Below, in pieces: positions 30,001-36,000 of a stretch of 64,000 bases of DNA; the stretch's first letter is position 1; every line of letters starts with the position of its first letter. Position numbers: made by a program. The DNA is from Oligoflexia bacterium (GTDB lineage Bacteria; Bdellovibrionota; UBA1018), in NCBI GenBank assembly GCA_963758495.1, contig CAVWVI010000003.1:512001-576000 (forward strand), given 5' to 3'.

Positions 30001-33000
30001 TTCAAATCGTTTTCATCTTCCTTATCCCCTGCTACTTGCCCCAATGTAGCATGATAAGTTTTGATGGGTTTATAGGTACCGTTACTGTATTCGCAAACAA
30101 GTAAGTTATTGGTCTTTTTGTCTACCAAAACCGCTGAAGTGGTGACTATCGAAGCAAAAAGGTTGCTCTCAAAAAAGATAAGAATGAATACGAAACAAGT
30201 CAATTTAGCCATGGGAGTATAGTATCATTAAAATGACAAAATCGCCTCAATGACAAGCAAAATTACTTATAATTAGGAAGCTGCAATATGCTTTTGACCT
30301 TGCCGAAAAGATCGCCATCGGAAGCCCCAAACTCGAAGTAATGCCTCAAAAACAATTCTTCGATTCATTTTTGATTTACCGATTTTACGATCTTCAAAAA
30401 TAATTGGAAACTCGACTATCTTAAATCCTCGCAAGAATGCGCGATACTTCAACTCGATTTGAAATGAATACCCATCTGACTTAAGAGTAGGCAAATCTAC
30501 CGATGTAAGTACATGGCGTCTCCAGCCATTAAACCCACCGGTAAAGTCCCGAATGGAAGCACCTAATATCATTCGAGAATAAAAACTTCCTCCTCGACTC
30601 AAAATTTTTCGACCTAAACCCCAATTGAGAGTTCCACCACCCGATACATAACGGGATCCAATCACGACATCATTTTGCGTCAGAAGCTCAAGCATCTTCC
30701 CTAAATATTTAGGATCATGTGAGAAATCCGCATCCATCTCAATGAAGCTCTCAAAGTCTTCTTTAAGACCCCATCCAAACCCATGAATATAAGCCGTTCC
30801 TAAACCCATTTTCTTAGCTCGATGAAGCACATGAAGCCGGCTGTTTTTTTGAGCGAGGGTATCTGCAAGCTCACCGGTTCCATCAGGAGAGCCGTCATCT
30901 ACTATCAAGATTTCGACATTTTTCGGGGCGATAGAAAGAACCGCTTCAGCGAGAAGCTTTAGATTCTCAATTTCATTGTAGGTCGGTATGACGATGAGTG
31001 TACGCATTTGTTAAGTATTGAACTAACATTTTTATGAGATTCCTGACAAGTTTTTATACTGACATAAGCCAACATAAAAAGAGAGAATGACTCATCTCAT
31101 CACACTCAGTTTTGAACTAGATCCAAAATCCTCTTGAGCTCTTTCAGTCTCTCCGTTTTGGATCGATTTTTTATTCTCTCCCAGTCTCGGTAACTGATTC
31201 GTATGACCTTCCAGCCTTCATCACGAAGAATGAAATCAAGCATTTGATCTTGGGCACTCAAGATCTCCTGGCCATTTCTTAGTTGAAAGTGATGCGGACC
31301 ATCAAATTGAATAATTAACTTGGAAGAAGGTACTGCAAAATCAACGTGAGTTGCAGTACTTTCAATCCAATACTCTTCCCGCAAGTCTTGAGGATAAAAA
31401 ACTCGAATATCTTTACCGATGGCCTTCTGAGCATTAGATATTCTAACTCCTTGAGCCTTAAATCGAGAAGAGGCCTCTTCCAAGCGACGAATGATCGGAG
31501 AAGGCATAAGAATTTTGAATCTTGCAAATAAAACTCCCCTAGCTAAAGAAAGCTGATGAAGCTCTATAAGATTAAAATCCCCAATTATCTTTAGGGCCCT
31601 TTTTTTCCAGGCTTCTAAGTAATGCTCTGTAGGCTGAACACCTAAAACTGAAAATGCATAAATTGAATTAGAAAGCCCCTGAGATTTAAAATTTTCAATG
31701 AAATAAATAGCCCTATTCTGCCATACCGCTAAGAAGTGATCTTCAGGATGAATTCCTAATACTGAAAATGCATAGAGTGAGTTAGAAAGCTCCTGAGACT
31801 TAAAGCTTTCAATAGAATGGATTGCCTGCGTCTGCCAGACCTCTATGAAGTGATCTGTAGGATGAATTCCTAATCCTGAAAATGCATAGAGTGAGTTAGA
31901 AAGGCCCTGAGATGTAAAGCTTTTAATTAAATCAATCGCCTGACTCTGCCAAGCCGCTAAAAAATCATCTGTGGGATGAATTCCTAATCCTGAAAATGCA
32001 TAGAGTGAGTTAGAAAGCTCCTGAGATTTAAAGCTTTTAATTAAATGAATCGCCTGACTCTGCCAAGCCGCCAAAAAATCATCTGTGGGATGAATTCCTA
32101 ATCCTGAAAATGCATAGAGTGAGTTAGAAAGCTCCTGAGCATTAAAACTATTCATCTGACCTAAGGCAGATTTCAGCCAAGATTGAATAAAAGAATCTGG
32201 GATAGAATGAATGCGTCGAGCTTTCTTAAGCTTTGCTAAAGAATGTAAACTCATAGCTAGGTTAATTTTATTAAAACGAGGTAATAATGGAGTTACTCTG
32301 CCAAACCAGGCCTGAACGTCCTGGTCCTTCACTCTCCATGGATTTTGAGACATTTCACGAATCTCATATGACACATCACTAGGCCGTTCAATACTCCAAG
32401 CGGGTGTAAGTAAATTTAAGCCACTTCCCAGTGTAATACACAGAACCAGCAGGGAAATCATTTCCCTCATTAATTTCTTCATATTTTTCGATCTCCCTGA
32501 TCTTTTTCTGAGCAATACCAGTGATAATGAAATTAAAGTCTACGCGGATAACGGGAATTTAACAAAAAAATTAAATAGTCTGCGGAATCAGACAAACTTA
32601 AAAGCCTGTGTGAAAAAAACTCACAAATCCCATCACACTCCGTTTTGAACTTGATCCAAAATGCTCTTGAACTCTTTCAGTCTCTCCGTTTGGGATCGAT
32701 CCTTTATTCTCTCCCAGTCTCGGTAACTGATTCGTATGACCTTCCAGCCTTCATCACGAAGAATGAAATCAAGCATTTGATCTTGGGCACTCAAGATCTC
32801 CTGGCCATTTCTTAGTTGGAAGTGATGCGGACCGTCAAATTGAATAATTAACTTGGAAGAAGGTACTGCAAAATCAACATAGCTCGCAATAGCGTCACTC
32901 CAATACTCTTCTCGCAAGTCCTGAGGATAAAGAACTCGAATATCGTTACCAACGGCCTTCTGAGTTTTGGATATTGTGACTCCTTGGGCCTTAAACCTAG

Positions 33001-36000
33001 AAGAAGCCTCCTCCAAGCGACGAATGATCGGAAAAGGCATAAGAATTTTGAATCTTGCAAATAAAACTCTCCTAGCTAAAGAAAGCTGATGAAGCTCTGC
33101 AAGATTAAAATCTCCAATTATCTTTAGAGCGCTTTTCTTCCAGGCTTCTAAGTAATGCTCTGTAGGCTGAACACCTAAAACTGAAAATGCATAAATTGAA
33201 TTAGAAAGCTCCTGAGATGTAAAGCTTTCAATAGAATGGATTGCCTGCGTCTGCCAGACCTCTAGGAAGTGATCTTTAGGATGAGTGCCTAAAACTGAAA
33301 ATGCATAGAGTGAATTAGAAAGGCCCTGAGACTTAAAGCTTTCAATAGAATGGATTGCCTGCGTCTGCCAGACCTCTATGAAGTGATCTGTAGGATGAAT
33401 TCCTAATCCTGAAAATGCATAGAGTGAGTTAGAAAGCTCCTGAGAGTTAAAGCTTTTAATTAAATCAATCGCCTGACTCTGCCAAGCCGCTAAAAAATCA
33501 TCTGTGGGATGAATTCCTAATCCTGAAAATGCATAGAGGGAGTTAGAAAGCTCCTGAGAGTTAAAGCTTTTAAATAAATGAATCACCTGACTCTGCCAAG
33601 CCGCTAAAAAATCATCTGTGGGATGAATTCCTAATCCTGAAAATGCATAAATTGAATTAGAAAGCTCCTGAGATGTAAAGCTTTTAATGGAATGAATTGC
33701 CTGACTCTGCCAAGCCGCTAAAAAGTCATCTGCCGGCTGAATTTTTAATACTGAAAATGCATAAAGTGAGTTAGAAAGTCCCTGAGATGTAAAGCTTTTA
33801 ATGGAACGAATTGCCTGCGTCTGCCAGACCTCTAGGAAGTGATTTGTGGGATGAATTCCTAATCCTGAAAATGCATAAATTGAGTTAGAAAGCTCCTGAG
33901 AGTTAAAGCTATTGATTTGACTTAAGGCAGATTCCAGCCAAGATTGTATAAAAGAATCTGAGATGAAATGAATGCGTCTAGCTTTCTTAAGCTTTGCTAA
34001 AGAATGTAAACTCATAGCTAGATTCATTTTACTAAAACGAGGTAATAATGGCGTTGCTCTGCCAAACCAGGCCTGAACGTCCTGGTCCTTCACTCTCCCT
34101 GGATTTTGAGACATTTCGCGAATCTCGTGTGCCAAATTATTAGGCCGTTCAATGCTCCAAGCGGGTGTAAGTAAATTTAAGCTACTTCCCAGTATAATAC
34201 ACAGAACCAGCAGGGAAATCATTCCCCTCACTAATTTTTTCATCTTTTTTGATCCCTCTGATCTTTTTCTGAGCAATACCAGTGATAATGAAATTAAAGT
34301 CTACGTAGATAGGAGAAATTTAGCAAATAATTGCTGAATAATATGCGAAGTTAAGATTCCGACCTATTGCTCTGTTCGCGGACGTCTAGATTGAAACAGT
34401 CCTAACTCTTTACTGAGAATATTTCAATCCACAGGCCCGCGAAGGGCGCGACCATGCAATTCAATTCGCGAAGCTGATATTAAAAAGTTTCAATCCACGC
34501 GCCCGTGAGGGGCGCGACCAGTCAGAGTAATAGACATCCACTTTTTTCATCGTTTCAATCCACGCGCCCGCGAGGGGCGCGACTTGCTTTAAAACATAGG
34601 CGTCAAGCTGATCAAATGTTTCAATCCACGCGCCCGCGAGGGGCGCGACCCGCTTGCATCAACCGCTTTTTCTCATTTTGAGGTTTCAATCCACGCGCCC
34701 GCGAGGGGCGCGACTCGATATTACTGATGGACATAGGATACATACAATGTTTCAATCCACGCGCCCGCGAGGGGCGCGACGTGTTCCTTCGGATCTTTGG
34801 GCGGGAGAAGCTGACGTTTCAATCCACGCGCCCGCGAGGGGCGCGACAGAGACGATGGCCGCATAGTGAGTTTTGATAATGGTTTCAATCCACGCGCCCG
34901 CGAGGGGCGCGACTCACTAACTCGGACGGGATACATTAACCATAAAGTTTCAATCCACGCGCCCGCGAGGGGCGCGACTTAGCGATGGTGAGCTAGGTGG
35001 ATATATTGAAAAAGTTTCAATCCACGCGCCCGCGAGGGGCGCGACCCGATCAACCCGATCAACTCGCCAATGCTATAAAGTTTCAATCCACGCGCCCGCG
35101 AGGGGCGCGACGTTACGGCGGGAATACTTCAGCTTCGATTGCATGGTTTCAATCCACGCGCCCGCGAGGGGCGCGACGTAGAACAACTGTTACCGGCGGA
35201 TTTTCAAGAGAGTTTCAATCCACGCGCCCGCGAGGGGCGCGACTTTCAGCACTCCTAGACTATTAACTAACTGACTAGTTTCAATCCACGCGCCCGCGAG
35301 GGGCGCGACAGATATAAAACCACGCATGAGCTTCGTAATAAGTGTTTCAATCCACGCGCCCGCGAGGGGCGCGACTCAATCATCTTGGGCAGCTTACGTT
35401 TCGTGAAAGTTTCAATCCACGCGCCCGCGAGGGGCGCGACTTGCCTAGTGACTTAACCCCTCCCCATACTTTAGGTTTCAATCCACGCGCCCGCGAGGGG
35501 CGCGACAGTTGCATAAAAATACGTCATACTGATCCTCGGTGTTTCAATCCACGCGCCCGCGAGGGGCGCGACTTAATTCCTTGGTCTGCCAAAGATTTAA
35601 GCTCAGGTTTCAATCCACGCGCCCGCGAGGGGCGCGACATCGAGTGCAGAACTCATTCAAGCAACCGCTCGAAAGTTTCAATCCACGCGCCCGCGAGGGG
35701 CGCGACCTTCGGGAGGAAATTTACAGGTCAGCGATATCATGTTTCAATCCACGCGCCCGCGAGGGGCGCGACCTCAAGCCGGAAGAGATATAGAAGCAGC
35801 TTGCTAGTTTCAATCCACGCGCCCGCGAGGGGCGCGACGTTTGGGATTTAACTTGCCTAAACTTAGTATCATTGTTTCAATCCACGCGCCCGCGAGGGGC
35901 GCGACCGGTGGAGATGGCGCAGGAGATGTCACCTACGTATGAGTTTCAATCCACGCGCCCGCGAGGGGCGCGACAGGACATCCCGCGTTTTATCTTGTGC

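What a model noticed while it worked through the whole genome (the two positions that open the first line are those of the whole stretch)
31106..34243. Tandem exported FASTK-like (FAST_1 + RAP) proteins
Two adjacent paralogs (g01132, 458 aa; g01133, 536 aa) combine a signal peptide with FAST-kinase-like and RAP domains, the architecture of eukaryotic organellar RNA-processing factors (FASTK family, chloroplast and apicomplexan RAP proteins). I read them as exported effectors that bind or cut organellar or cytosolic RNA of a eukaryotic host through the PD-(D/E)XK-like RAP nuclease fold. New would be bacterial use of the FASTK/RAP module, otherwise a hallmark of mitochondria and plastids.
Evidence so far: Pfam: RAP 391-448 (2e-11) and 467-520 (1.5e-10), over cut-off; FAST_1 34.2 bits in g01133 (cut 27.4) and 25.1 bits in g01132; weak DUF559 (Vsr-like endonuclease) over the RAP part. 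Signal-like N-termini MKKLMREMISLLVLCITLGSGLNLL... relatives.tsv: RAP in 110 of 189,784 bacterial genomes, 3 of 850 in the phylum, 1 of 74 in the family. The pair lies beside the type I-C CRISPR-cas locus on a 1.68-Mb contig.
(Added by a program. Inside this text positions count along the whole contig: contig position 512,001 is position 1 of the stretch shown here. "Call 12" and the like, gene names such as g00115 and contig names such as C1 are that model's own, and its searches are not shown. The text may have been shortened before it was handed on; [...] marks where a part breaks off. The agent that wrote the report below was given it as the finding of a first reader that could run no searches.)

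Follow-up and report, generated by a model that had tools for sequence, protein, structure and literature searches.

The report
Exported helical-repeat RAP protein pair
Two neighbouring genes of a Bdellovibrio-related bacterium encode secreted-looking copies of a helical-repeat-plus-nuclease protein best known from mitochondria and chloroplasts, and they sit on a mobile DNA island; a few bacteria are already known to have this protein type, but what an exported version does is unknown.

Summary
[quoted passage not shown] The AlphaFold model (pLDDT 94.6) matches organellar RAP proteins along its whole length.

They are OPR-RAP proteins, not FASTK members: FAST_2 is not detected. The claimed novelty, bacterial use of the module, is already in print for Orientia (PMC7729196, PMC8190603). 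This scan has also met the kind several times on other DNA.

New here:
- All ten helical-repeat/RAP-like proteins I found in the Bdellovibrionota sample have hydrophobic signal-like N-termini. Nine pass a crude test that 25% of the genome's long ORFs pass.
- The pair is the last cargo of a 21-kb GInt-type island (three tyrosine recombinases, inserted at the end of ssb). The island also carries the type I-C CRISPR-Cas locus.
- The copies are recent (dS 0.17), under purifying selection (dN/dS 0.37) and differ by two repeat units.
- D381, D394 and H398 are kept; the signature Glu is Gln and the usual Arg/Lys is Phe.

Best reading: exported nucleic-acid binders, perhaps nucleases, that act outside the cytoplasm. 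Nothing supports a eukaryotic host.

The parts
32633..34243 (-). Gene B: 536-aa exported OPR-RAP protein (1 degenerate + 7 regular 38-aa repeats)
   Evidence: ORF. Pfam RAP 41.3 bits, FAST_1 34.2 bits. Repeat register.
31106..32482 (-). Gene A: 458-aa exported OPR-RAP protein (1 degenerate + 5 regular 38-aa repeats)
   Evidence: ORF. Pfam RAP 44.0 bits, FAST_1 25.1 bits. AF2 model pLDDT 94.6, pTM 0.88. Foldseek matches to RESC6, Toxoplasma mitoribosomal RAP proteins and ASA2.
34157..34243 (-). Signal-like N-terminus of B (residues 1-29, MKKLVRGM-ISLLVLCIILGSSLNLL-TPAWS)
   Evidence: Basic n-region, 17-residue uncharged hydrophobic core, A-W-S at -3 to -1. Passes the crude test.
32396..32482 (-). 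Signal-like N-terminus of A (residues 1-29)
   Evidence: Passes the crude test. In the AF2 model it is a lone helix 2-20, followed by a low-confidence linker 20-27 (pLDDT under 50); the folded domain starts at residue 34.
33122..33919 (-). Seven regular 38-aa (114-bp) repeats of B
   Evidence: TRF: period 114, 6.6 copies, 86% matches at 33159-33910. Register.
31589..32158 (-). Five regular 38-aa (114-bp) repeats of A
   Evidence: TRF: period 114, 4.6 copies, 86% matches at 31626-32154. Unit-to-unit DNA identity A2=B4 97%, A3=B5 96%, A5=B7 92%.
32636..32920 (-). RAP (Vsr/DUF559-like alpha-beta) domain of B
   Evidence: Pfam. 11 amino-acid differences from A in 93 codons.
31109..31387 (-). RAP domain of A (residues 366-458), with D381, Q392, D394, H398 and F417
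   Evidence: Residue counts in 45 aligned homologues. Domain-only model pLDDT 93.6. Foldseek: Toxoplasma RAP domains TMq 0.61-0.77, I-Bth0305I, NGO0050 (DUF559), Vsr, FASTKD4.
32483..32560 (-). Upstream region of A, duplicated with the gene (about 75 nt nearly identical to that of B, includes the ribosome-binding site)
   Evidence: Alignment of the two 150-nt upstream stretches. No sigma-70 consensus on this strand.
34244..34320 (-). Upstream region of B (same conserved about 75 nt)
32578..32593 (-). Terminator-like hairpin 40 nt after the stop of B
   Evidence: consensus match only.
34421..36320 (-). Type I-C CRISPR array. The degenerate last repeat faces gene B, 177 nt from its ATG.
   Evidence: 26 repeats with at most 3 mismatches at 34487-36320. 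The degenerate copy is read.
36491..44500 (-). cas2-cas1-cas4-cas7-csd1(cas8c)-cas5d-cas3 operon, co-cargo of the island
   Evidence: Pfam.
46896..52152 (-). ginABCD-like module: three consecutive tyrosine-recombinase-like genes (50962-52152, 49361-50965, 47365-49395) and a small ORF (46896-47372)
   Evidence: Pfam Phage_integrase 50.7, 19.8 and 22.1 bits against a cut-off of 27.1. ORF layout. GInt definition from PMC5385486 (passages).
31053..52377 (-). About 21.3-kb genome-specific island between ssb (52378-52902) and the GT2 gene (30273-31007). The RAP pair is its last cargo.
   Evidence: Synteny in five family genomes. Candidate imperfect end repeat, 12 of 15. Last 98 nt are 31% G+C.

Best explanation
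A and B are two functional, recently duplicated members of the bacterial branch of the OPR-RAP (helical-repeat plus RAP-domain) family. They arrived as cargo of a GInt-type mobile island. Each is made with a Sec-type signal peptide, so the folded protein ends up outside the cytoplasmic membrane, either in the periplasm or released further. There the alpha-solenoid of 38-residue repeats (6 units in A, 8 in B) most likely binds a stretch of single-stranded nucleic acid, RNA by analogy with every characterised relative. The C-terminal Vsr/DUF559-like RAP domain either holds or cuts that nucleic acid. Because the protein leaves its own cytoplasm, the target should be nucleic acid of another cell (prey or competitor, or less likely a eukaryotic host) or incoming or extracellular nucleic acid.

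Shown: architecture, fold, family, duplication, island context, conservation of the N-terminal signal across the phylum's relatives.

Inferred: export itself, nucleic-acid binding, catalysis, and whose nucleic acid is the target.
For: Family and fold:
- RAP is over cut-off in both proteins.
- The profile of 45 homologues hits RESC6 at 2.5e-38, Toxoplasma RAP proteins at 1.6e-19, Chlamydomonas mL115, Polytomella ASA2 and FASTKD4 at 1.7e-7.
- The AF2 model has pLDDT 94.6. Foldseek gives TMq 0.57-0.65 over 339-456 columns to the same proteins.
- The RAP domain alone matches Toxoplasma RAP domains at TMq 0.61-0.77 (rmsd 2.5-3.1), then I-Bth0305I, DUF559 NGO0050 and Vsr.

Export:
- All 10 helical-repeat/RAP-like proteins found in the Bdellovibrionota sample (this pair plus 8 from 6 other genomes) begin with a hydrophobic signal-like segment.
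- 9 of the 10 pass a crude n/h/c test that 468 of 1879 (25%) long ORFs of this genome pass. Orientia and algal homologues fail it.
- The positive-inside rule puts the bulk of the protein outside even if the segment is not cleaved.

Active site:
- D381 is kept in 45 of 45 homologues, D394 in 43 of 45, H398 in 44 of 45.
- D381/H398 correspond to the Vsr D51/H69 pair discussed for FASTKD4 (PMC11879112, passages).
- FASTKD5 shows that a RAP protein can be a real endoribonuclease (PMC12242768, passages).

Both copies are in use: intact ORFs, dN/dS 0.37 at dS 0.17.

Mobile cargo:
- In 3 of 5 family genomes ssb directly adjoins GT2 (12-351 nt).
- In none of the 5 are RAP or cas genes at this site.
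- Three consecutive recombinase-like genes lie next to the end of ssb, a known GInt insertion site (PMC5385486).
- GInts are reported to carry effector genes and gene clusters, taken mostly from related bacteria (same passages).
- The closest named relative is a Bdellovibrionia MAG, 60% identical.
Against: - No real signal-peptide predictor was available; the test is my own crude rule with a 25% background.
- No expression or secretion data exist, and no RNA run holds the stretch.
- The signature Glu is Gln (as in 16 of 45 homologues) and the usual Arg/Lys is Phe (4 of 45). FASTKD4 shows that a RAP domain can be catalytically dead.
- The repeat block is mildly acidic (net -6 in A, -10 in B), which does not favour RNA binding.
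- The fold can serve as a pure scaffold, as ASA2 does in the Polytomella ATP synthase.
- A route beyond the periplasm is not shown. There are only weak, adjacent T2SSK/T2SSL-like hits under or near cut-off, and no T6SS sheath gene was found in a 92%-complete genome.
- The relatives have no conserved partner gene that might hint at a pathway.
Confidence: 0.45

Rival explanations
1. One reading: effectors delivered into a eukaryotic host cell, where they bind or cut organellar or cytosolic RNA.
For: Every characterised relative works on organellar RNA. The bacterial genomes that carry the same Gln-variant motif are mostly obligate symbionts of eukaryotes: Rickettsiaceae bacterium Os18 (32-34% identity over residues 27-455), Ca. 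Tisiphia, Holosporaceae and Rickettsiales MAGs. Orientia proteins also appear. GInts can carry type III effector genes.
Against: The genome is a 3.66-Mb Bdellovibrionota genome, and I found no sign of a eukaryotic host. In the quick tree the RAP region falls with signal-bearing bacterial sequences, including Bdellovibrionota ones, and labelled algal sequences fall elsewhere; support is weak (SH-aLRT 82-89). The Rickettsiales homologues mostly lack a Sec signal, so the delivery logic differs. No T6SS sheath gene was found, and type III and IV systems were not searched.
Confidence: 0.12
2. An envelope-located defence or exclusion nuclease. The pair sits in the periplasm and binds or cuts incoming foreign DNA or RNA (phage, conjugative or transforming), as a companion cargo to CRISPR-Cas on a defence-type island.
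For: The pair shares a mobile island with a complete type I-C system. The domain is Vsr/DUF559/homing-endonuclease-like, and those enzymes act on DNA. A paper on E. coli defence islands mentions GInts (PMC10121019, search listing only).
Against: PADLOC gives no hit for either protein or for the other island ORFs. The eight relatives in other Bdellovibrionota lie among housekeeping genes, not defence genes. Known defence nucleases are cytoplasmic. Adjacency on an island is weak evidence of shared function.
Confidence: 0.15
3. A scaffold that does not handle nucleic acid. The solenoid binds a protein or envelope component, and the RAP domain is a degenerate structural module.
For: ASA2, a structural subunit of the Polytomella ATP synthase, is a full-length structural match (TMq 0.62 over 452 columns; profile E 2.1e-14). 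FASTKD4 is catalytically inactive. Here Glu is replaced by Gln and Arg/Lys by Phe. The repeat block is acidic. There is little RNA in a periplasm.
Against: D381, D394 and H398 remain conserved, and the RAP region is under purifying selection (dN/dS 0.41). The N-terminal cap and the linker next to the RAP domain are strongly basic (pI 10.4 and 10.9).
Confidence: 0.18
4. Not a bacterial gene at all: eukaryotic (algal) contamination, or a dead recent import.
For: Many of the 88 homologues are algal or from other eukaryotes, with E-values down to about 1e-60.
Against: The genes lie inside a 1.68-Mb bacterial contig, between CRISPR-Cas and conserved core genes. They have bacterial ribosome-binding sites and host-like G+C and GC3. 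Both ORFs are intact with dN/dS 0.37. The closest relatives are a Bdellovibrionia MAG and metagenomic proteins with the same signal-like start.
Confidence: 0.02

Closest known systems
Orientia RAP domain-containing proteins (OtRAP of O. tsutsugamushi in Fig. 6 of PMC7729196; O. chuto protein P0012) and the related proteins of Rickettsiaceae bacterium Os18, Ca. Tisiphia and Holosporaceae
   Same: [quoted passage not shown] Identity is 31-34% over most of the length.
   Different: Those examined mostly have no Sec-type signal, and they belong to obligate intracellular symbionts. They form a separate group in the quick tree. The residue at the Arg/Lys position is Lys there and Phe here. None has been characterised.
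OPR-RAP proteins of green algae and plants (Chlamydomonas NCL family and Tab1/Tbc2-type OPR proteins, Arabidopsis RAP) and of Paulinella
   Same: [quoted passage not shown] They also occur as tandemly duplicated, diversifying gene clusters: 10 NCL OPR-RAP genes in tandem (PMC13126933 passages; OPR motif in PMC12691811 passages).
   Different: They are nuclear genes with organelle transit peptides. Their signature is IEVDGPxHF with Arg at the basic position. Their targets are organellar transcripts. The labelled algal sequences fall in another group of the tree.
HPR/RAP proteins of organellar ribonucleoprotein machines: T. brucei RESC6/RESC8 (8fn4, 8fni), Toxoplasma mitoribosomal RAP proteins (9i05, 9g6k), Tetrahymena mL104 (6z1p_AS), Chlamydomonas mL115/mL116 (7pkt)
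   Same: These are the best matches by sequence profile and by structure, over both solenoid and RAP domain.
   Different: They are eukaryotic, act inside organelles and are permanently bound to RNA. Sequence identity is only 11-18%.
Human FASTK family (FASTKD4 crystal structure 9gek; FASTKD5 endoribonuclease)
   Same: Helical repeats followed by a Vsr-like RAP module. The D381/H398 pair corresponds to the Vsr D51/H69 pair used to discuss FASTKD4. FASTKD5 cuts RNA.
   Different: FAST_2 is not detected here and FAST_1 is under cut-off in A. The match to 9gek is weaker than to the HPR/OPR proteins (Foldseek E 1.4e-6, TMq 0.47). There is no mitochondrial targeting. A 2025 review states that bacteria lack fastk genes (PMC12687428 passage).
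Bacterial Vsr / DUF559 (NGO0050, 3hrl) / I-Bth0305I catalytic domain (3r3p)
   Same: Same alpha-beta nuclease fold (TMt 0.68-0.69 for 3hrl and 3r3p). Asp...Asp-Gly-x-x-His motif. DUF559 HMM at 19.2 and 20.1 bits.
   Different: Under the DUF559 cut-off of 20.6. Structurally closer to eukaryotic RAP domains (TMq up to 0.77). Those enzymes are stand-alone or differently fused, act on DNA and are cytoplasmic.
GInt genomic islands (ginABCD; Bardaji et al. 2017, PMC5385486)
   Same: Three consecutive tyrosine-recombinase genes plus a small fourth gene at one end, about 16 kb of cargo, a short AT-rich far end, and insertion at the 3' end of ssb.
   Different: Two of the three recombinase hits are under Pfam's cut-off. 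The end repeat is only a candidate. Excision is untested. The paper's passages that I read do not mention CRISPR-Cas or RAP cargo.

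Membership tests
RAP domain (Pfam PF08373) | HMM score over the gathering cut-off (24.2 bits) | tested here: met
   44.0 bits (A) and 41.3 bits (B). Six-frame search 45.3 and 45.5 bits.
RAP domain (Pfam PF08373) | Signature block Np-Np-Np-Ac-Np-Ac-G-P-x-H-F, and second block with L14/G18 (PMC8190603) | tested here: inconclusive
   The block is LIIQFDGPHHF: the first acidic residue is Gln (E 29, Q 16 of 45 homologues) and the rest is kept. L419 and G423 are kept. The R12 position is Phe (R 22, K 4, F 4 of 45).
RAP domain (Pfam PF08373) | Restriction-endonuclease-like alpha-beta fold | tested here: met
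   Domain model pLDDT 93.6. TMq 0.61-0.77 to Toxoplasma RAP domains. Also matches 3r3p, 3hrl and 1vsr.
Octotricopeptide repeat (OPR) proteins | Tandem degenerate repeats of 38 residues, each a helix pair, stacked into an alpha-solenoid | tested here: met
   Spacing is 38 between all regular units. TRF period 114 bp. The model has paired helices throughout residues 34-343.
Octotricopeptide repeat (OPR) proteins | PPPEW-type motif (conserved P, aromatic four residues on) | tested here: met
   HP(T/E/A/K)(D/N/E)(D/H)(F/Y) in every regular unit. The W-to-F form is described as common in PMC12691811.
Octotricopeptide repeat (OPR) proteins | Sequence-specific binding of organellar RNA | not testable with these tools
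   No RNA-binding assay. The repeat block is mildly acidic.
FASTK family (FAST_1 - FAST_2 - RAP) | FAST_1 (PF06743) over cut-off 27.4 | tested here: inconclusive
   B 34.2 bits (met), A 25.1 bits (not met). The hit falls on the OPR repeats.
FASTK family (FAST_1 - FAST_2 - RAP) | FAST_2 (PF08368) between FAST_1 and RAP | tested here: not met
   Not listed for either protein at E up to 1.
FASTK family (FAST_1 - FAST_2 - RAP) | Mitochondrial targeting in an animal | tested here: not met
   A bacterial gene with a Sec-type N-terminus.
DUF559 / Vsr-like endonucleases | DUF559 HMM over cut-off 20.6; Asp/His catalytic pair | tested here: not met
   The HMM scores 19.2 and 20.1 bits, so membership is not met. 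The D381/H398 pair is present by alignment, but its geometry was not measured.
Sec-dependent exported proteins | Basic n-region, uncharged hydrophobic h-region, small residues at -3/-1 | tested here: met
   MKKLMREM / ISLLVLCITLGSGLNLL / TPAWS. Passes the crude rule (background 468 of 1879). No curated predictor was available, so the cleavage site is inferred.
XopAD / SKWP (RipS) type III effectors | 42-residue SKWP repeats; NCBIfam NF041399 cut-off 2000 bits | tested here: not met
   19.4 and 27.0 bits. The period here is 38, not 42.
GInt mobile islands | ginABCD: three consecutive tyrosine recombinases plus a small fourth gene at one end | tested here: inconclusive
   Phage_integrase 50.7 bits (396 aa), 19.8 (534 aa) and 22.1 (676 aa) against a cut-off of 27.1. 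A 158-aa ORF follows; all overlap or abut. The paper says GinC often lacks the domains.
GInt mobile islands | Site-specific insertion (several families at the end of ssb); segment absent from relatives | tested here: met
   The island starts right after the ssb stop codon. In G138, G008 and G005, ssb adjoins GT2 directly. G003 has the next gene 537 nt away. G028 has a different insert of about 7.5 kb.
GInt mobile islands | Imperfect 10-17-nt direct repeats at the ends; AT-rich far end; excision as a circle | tested here: inconclusive
   Best end repeat is 12 of 15 (TTAGGTCGGAATAAA against TTATGTCAGTATAAA), about what chance could give in stretches this size by my estimate. The last 98 nt are 31% G+C. 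Excision is not testable here.

The most novel reading that the evidence does not exclude
Bdellovibrionota have turned the organelle-type, repeat-programmable OPR-RAP design into a Sec-exported weapon. The solenoid reads a short sequence in the RNA of prey or competitor cells (for example rRNA or tRNA) and the RAP domain cuts it. Tandem duplication and gain or loss of 114-bp repeat units retune the specificity, and GInt islands spread the genes. That would make these the first secreted, modular, sequence-reading RNA nucleases of bacteria, and a possible bacterial source of the eukaryotic RAP/OPR proteins.
Probability: 0.18. Interest if true: 0.8.

Novelty: new variant of a known kind. Interest (0 to 1): 0.5.

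Why it matters
Helical-repeat-plus-RAP proteins are treated as a hallmark of mitochondria and plastids. One recent review says bacteria lack fastk genes (PMC12687428), and the few bacterial cases in print are uncharacterised proteins of intracellular symbionts.

This locus gives an exported branch of the family in a phylum of bacterial predators, carried on a mobile island and diversifying by duplication and repeat-number change. That would matter in three ways:
- It shows the module is used outside any organelle, and even outside the producing cell's cytoplasm.
- It offers small, soluble, well-modelled proteins (pLDDT 94.6). Their near-identical repeats make them good material for working out whether OPR repeats read RNA by a code, which is still open for OPR and HPR proteins (PMC12691811).
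- It bears on whether the eukaryotic family came from bacteria or the reverse.

If the proteins prove to be periplasmic scaffolds, the interest is modest.

Tried and rejected
With the 3-sequence alignment it found nothing in genome contigs. A 6-sequence alignment then gave 11 loci.
- phmmer of the C-terminal 160 aa against PDB sequences gave 0 hits at E up to 10. The profile search worked.
- Expression: no RNA holder listed. One soil-metagenome DNA run holds 0.05 of the words. I did not lay reads.
- The promoter scan found no sigma-70 consensus on the minus strand upstream of either gene.
- There are no exact direct or inverted repeats of 9 nt or more between the island ends, and no tRNA gene between 28 and 56 kb.
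- PADLOC gave no hit for A, B or seven island ORFs.
- I looked for a conserved neighbour around six relatives' genes: of 39 flanking ORFs, 30 were scanned and no family recurs.
- The careful maximum-likelihood tree did not finish in 288 s. Only the quick tree (SH-aLRT, no bootstrap) is reported.
- Secretion routes: T2SSL hits are under cut-off. The T2SSK model rings in 10 of 14 control genomes, so it is uninformative. VipB (T6SS) was not found in a 92%-complete genome. Type III and IV systems were not searched.
- Literature search (any 2 of 6 terms) returned symbiont papers with no RAP content and was useless. The DUF1601 search found no paper.
- Rejected: lipoprotein (L-V-L-C is not a lipobox, and the Cys lies inside the hydrophobic core), and an immunity-gene partner (no ORF fits in the 117-nt and 98-nt gaps after B and A).
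- The 1083-1133-aa proteins of complete Bdellovibrio-type genomes that raise the phylum count carry only a weak internal RAP hit (19.8 bits as a protein). They are not members.

Full report
THE OBSERVATION

Two ORFs lie head to tail on the minus strand. A is 31106-32482 (458 aa from its ATG) and B is 32633-34243 (536 aa). All Pfam figures in the finding reproduce:
- RAP: 44.0 bits in A and 41.3 in B (cut-off 24.2).
- FAST_1: 25.1 in A and 34.2 in B (cut-off 27.4).
- DUF559: 19.2 and 20.1 (cut-off 20.6).

NCBIfam adds only a faint likeness to XopAD/SKWP effector repeats (19.4 and 27.0 bits against a cut-off of 2000). Each ATG is preceded at 9-10 nt by a GGGAG-type ribosome-binding site (read).

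The two proteins are 88% identical in aligned columns. They differ by one 76-residue gap.

ANATOMY

After the N-terminus (MKKLMREM-ISLLVLCITLGSGLNLL-TPAWS) and a basic cap comes one degenerate unit. Five (A) or seven (B) regular units of exactly 38 residues follow; a typical unit reads LIKSFKSQELSNSLYAFSGLGIHPTDDFLAAWQSQAID. Tandem Repeats Finder sees the same thing as 114-bp DNA repeats, 4.6 and 6.6 copies at 86% matches.

A period of 38, a Q-x-L start and a P...F motif (HPTDDF) are the marks of octotricopeptide (OPR) repeats. Their PPPEW motif often has F for W (PMC12691811, passages). A basic linker and the RAP domain follow the repeats.

AlphaFold2, run with 45 homologues, gives pLDDT 94.6 and pTM 0.88. 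The model shows:
- a lone N-terminal helix (residues 2-20);
- a low-confidence linker (20-27);
- an uninterrupted stack of helix pairs (34-343);
- an alpha-beta domain (368-457).

WHAT FAMILY IT IS

Foldseek aligns 339-456 columns of the 458-residue model to organellar proteins:
- trypanosome RESC6 (E 4.5e-11);
- Toxoplasma mitoribosomal RAP proteins (TMq up to 0.65, rmsd 3.3);
- Polytomella ASA2 and Tetrahymena mL104;
- Chlamydomonas mitoribosomal OPR proteins;
- FASTKD4, more weakly (E 1.4e-6).

A sequence profile of the 45 homologues hits the same set: RESC6 at 2.5e-38, Toxoplasma at 1.6e-19, ASA2 at 2.1e-14, FASTKD4 at 1.7e-7 and the DUF559 protein 3hrl at 0.021.

The RAP domain modelled alone (pLDDT 93.6) is closest to Toxoplasma RAP domains (TMq 0.61-0.77, rmsd 2.5-3.1). 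Next come I-Bth0305I, NGO0050 (DUF559), Vsr and FASTKD4.

FAST_2 is not detected at E up to 1. I therefore file the proteins as OPR-RAP, not FASTK.

CATALYTIC RESIDUES

In the 45-sequence alignment:
- E370 is kept in 41 of 45, D381 in 45, D394 in 43 and H398 in 44.
- The signature position before D394 is Glu in 29 and Gln in 16, including this pair.
- The basic position of the second motif is Arg in 22, Lys in 4, Glu in 5, Ala in 4 and Phe in 4, including this pair.

D381/H398 correspond to the Vsr D51/H69 pair by which the FASTKD4 structure paper judges the site. That paper concludes FASTKD4 is inactive (PMC11879112, passages). FASTKD5 is a proven, metal-independent endoribonuclease (PMC12242768, passages).

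So catalysis here is possible but open. I could not measure geometry, because model coordinates are not given to scripts.

ORGANISM AND RARITY

The genome has 3.66 Mb in 5 contigs and is 92% complete. A MurC-like protein of the window falls in an Atlas cluster whose commonest phylum is Bdellovibrionota. This agrees with earlier notes of this scan on the same genome.

Only the two genes match in the genome. The RAP model finds 0 of 57 other genomes of the family. In the phylum it finds 22 of 401 genomes at E up to 1e-3, and 11 of 401 over cut-off.

I inspected 16 places from the two relative searches. Genuine helical-repeat proteins with a C-terminal RAP-like domain are:
- G041, one of 767 aa plus a tandem pair of 554 and 548 aa (the upstream copy of the pair turned up only when the region was widened);
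- G047 (757 aa), G043 (856 aa), G145 (759 aa), G264 (371 aa) and G144 (445 aa).

The other inspected places are not members:
- six proteins of 1010-1133 aa with a weak hit that is not a C-terminal RAP domain (the one scanned as a protein scored 19.8 bits, at residues 117-171);
- three large helicase-type proteins (1565-1757 aa open frames; G012, G298, G064) ending in a DUF559-like domain.

The C-terminal 160 aa has 204 matches at E up to 1e-3 among 1.84 billion representative proteins. Only two of them are close: P0089 at 61% and P0002 at 52%.

EXPORT IS A LINEAGE TRAIT

All ten Bdellovibrionota proteins (this pair plus the eight above) start with a hydrophobic signal-like segment. Nine pass a crude n/h/c rule of my own. 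The tenth only lacks a basic residue before the core. The same rule passes 468 of 1879 (25%) ORFs of 250 aa or more in this genome.

Among 18 other homologues tested, 5 pass (P0004, P0090, P0105, P0106, P0113) and 13 fail. The failures include three Orientia-type proteins and the algal ones.

Kin are not independent and the rule is rough. Even so, the pattern is consistent, and the AlphaFold picture of a detached N-terminal helix fits it.

EVOLUTIONARY PLACE

A quick tree of the RAP region (53 rows, 147 columns, SH-aLRT only; the careful search did not finish) gives this picture:
- A and B join (97), and then join P0002, P0089 and P0032 (89).
- These lie inside a 14-row group (82) that holds Bdellovibrionota G145 and G264 and several signal-bearing metagenomic proteins.
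- The labelled algal and diatom sequences fall in another group (85), and the Orientia-type ones in a third (86).
- Four rows were dropped for lack of the motif: the G041 upstream copy, P0094, the Porphyridium protein and P0097.

Support is weak.

A scan of one genome per species with the motif [IVA]IQ[FV]DGP[HRT]H gave 11 confirmed loci:
- a Bdellovibrionia MAG (60% identity, a C-terminal fragment at a contig end);
- Rickettsiaceae bacterium Os18 (two loci, 32-34% over residues 27-455);
- Holosporaceae (two), a Rickettsiales MAG, Ca. Tisiphia, a Rickettsiaceae MAG and a Francisellaceae MAG;
- two archaea.

The full-length Rickettsiales proteins (Os18, Ca. Tisiphia and the Rickettsiales MAG) lack a signal; the full-length Holosporaceae one (L061) has one.

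WHAT IS ALREADY KNOWN

- Oberleitner et al. 2020 draw an Orientia OPR + FAST + RAP protein beside algal and Paulinella OPR proteins and SKWP effectors (PMC7729196, passages).
- Hollin et al. 2021 report RAP candidates in a few bacteria and archaea and suggest horizontal transfer (PMC8190603, passages). I did not open their Table S1.
- The Atlas holds bacterial RAP clusters of 157 and 100 members.
- This scan has reported bacterial or archaeal helical-repeat/RAP-like proteins at least seven times on other DNA, twice in Bdellovibrionota.

So bacterial use of the module is not new.

I found nothing in print on an exported form or on Bdellovibrionota. The searches were 'RAP domain' + 'signal peptide' + 'bacteria' (6 papers, none about bacterial RAP proteins by their titles), and Bdellovibrio with FASTK, OPR, HPR or RAP terms (23 papers held at least 2 of the 5 terms, 15 were listed, and none of the 15 contains 'Bdellovibrio').

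GENOMIC CONTEXT: A GINT-TYPE ISLAND

The L,D-transpeptidase next door is a core gene of the family (38 of 40 other genomes). I compared five relatives with long contigs (G138, G008, G028, G003, G005).

The block kinase - MurC-like - beta-lactamase - (DAO) - transpeptidase - GT2 is conserved in them. The next gene that matches this genome is ssb (window 52378-52902) or its neighbour:
- In G008, G005 and G138, ssb lies 12-351 nt from GT2.
- In G003 the gene beyond ssb lies 537 nt away (ssb itself fell under my 150-aa filter).
- In G028 a different insert of about 7.5 kb sits in the slot.

None has RAP or cas genes there. So about 21.3 kb (roughly 31053-52377) is specific to this genome.

Read from ssb, the segment holds:
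- three consecutive tyrosine-recombinase-like genes (396, 534 and 676 aa; Phage_integrase 50.7, 19.8 and 22.1 bits) and a 158-aa ORF;
- small unknown genes;
- the type I-C cas operon;
- a CRISPR array of 26 or more repeats;
- B, then A, then 98 nt of 31% G+C.

This is the published tripartite GInt layout: ginABCD, then cargo, then a short AT-rich end. Several GInt families are reported to insert at the end of ssb and to carry effector genes and gene clusters, mostly taken from related bacteria (PMC5385486, passages).

The best end repeat is only 12 of 15, which chance could give. No tRNA gene is present. G+C and GC3 of the pair match the host.

THE DUPLICATION

The copies are about 92% identical in DNA outside the repeats. 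About 75 nt upstream, including the ribosome-binding site, are duplicated with them. A terminator-like hairpin follows B.

The repeat units are colinear: A2=B4 at 97%, A3=B5 at 96% and A5=B7 at 92%. B carries two extra units.

dN/dS is 0.37 at dS 0.17, and ranges from 0.27 to 0.51 by region. Both copies are therefore kept by selection.

Tandem, diversifying copies also occur in G041 and in the Chlamydomonas NCL cluster (PMC13126933, passage).

HOW IT MOST LIKELY WORKS

The following steps are inferred, not shown:
1. Sec export and probable cleavage after A-W-S.
2. The solenoid binds single-stranded nucleic acid.
3. The RAP domain grips or cuts it.
4. The target lies outside the producer's cytoplasm: prey or competitor cells, a host, or incoming nucleic acid.

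Evidence against this reading:
- The repeat block is mildly acidic (net -6 and -10), although the cap and linker are basic.
- Gln and Phe sit at two signature positions.
- A route out of the periplasm is not shown.
- There is no expression evidence.
- PADLOC knows neither protein.
- The relatives share no neighbour.

The rivals are a eukaryotic-host effector, a periplasmic defence nuclease and a pure scaffold. None is excluded; they are weighed in their own sections.

VERDICT

The feature is real and well modelled. It is a new variant (exported, island-borne, in Bdellovibrionota) of a kind already recorded in bacteria. Its function is open.

Noticed in passing
window 31053-52377: The type I-C CRISPR-Cas locus itself is cargo of a GInt-type island (three tyrosine-recombinase genes plus a small ORF at 46896-52152) inserted right after the ssb stop codon. 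The slot is empty in three related genomes.
   Followed up: yes
L055:3204-9844 (G028:C22): A related genome has a different insert of about 7.5 kb (four ORFs of 730, 411, 509 and 554 aa with no match in this genome) in the same ssb-GT2 slot, so the site looks like an insertion hotspot.
   Followed up: no
L014:2276-3940 and L014:4109-5755 (G041:C14): Another genome of the same order has its own tandem pair of signal-bearing helical proteins ending in a DUF559/MTES_1575-like domain (Pfam 17.5 and 29.8 bits, under cut-off). This is a parallel case of tandem duplication.
   Followed up: partly
window 36042-36221: A 180-nt stretch inside the CRISPR array holds no repeat within 3 mismatches, although repeats resume on both sides. 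It could hold degenerate repeats or a small insertion.
   Followed up: no
window 20533-22155 (-): A 540-aa protein joins ankyrin repeats to an FGE-sulfatase (sulfatase-modifying-factor-like) domain. A 663-aa Ser/Thr protein kinase lies next to it (22747-24738).
   Followed up: no
L035-L038, L040, L042 (G350, G177, G119, G226, G381, G204): Conserved signal-bearing proteins of 1010-1133 aa in Bdellovibrio-type genomes (several complete) give weak RAP-model hits that are not C-terminal RAP domains (in the one scanned as a protein, near the N-terminus at residues 117-171). They inflate six-frame counts of 'RAP' in the phylum, and their family is unknown to me.
   Followed up: partly
G000:C4:368437-369319: Adjacent weak hits to T2SSK (21.6 bits) and T2SSL (20.6 bits) suggest a divergent type II secretion or pilus-like gene cluster.
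   Followed up: no
window 45766-46443 (-): The island cargo includes a 225-aa protein with a C-terminal DUF3892 domain, and several ORFs with no family, between the recombinase module and cas3.
   Followed up: no
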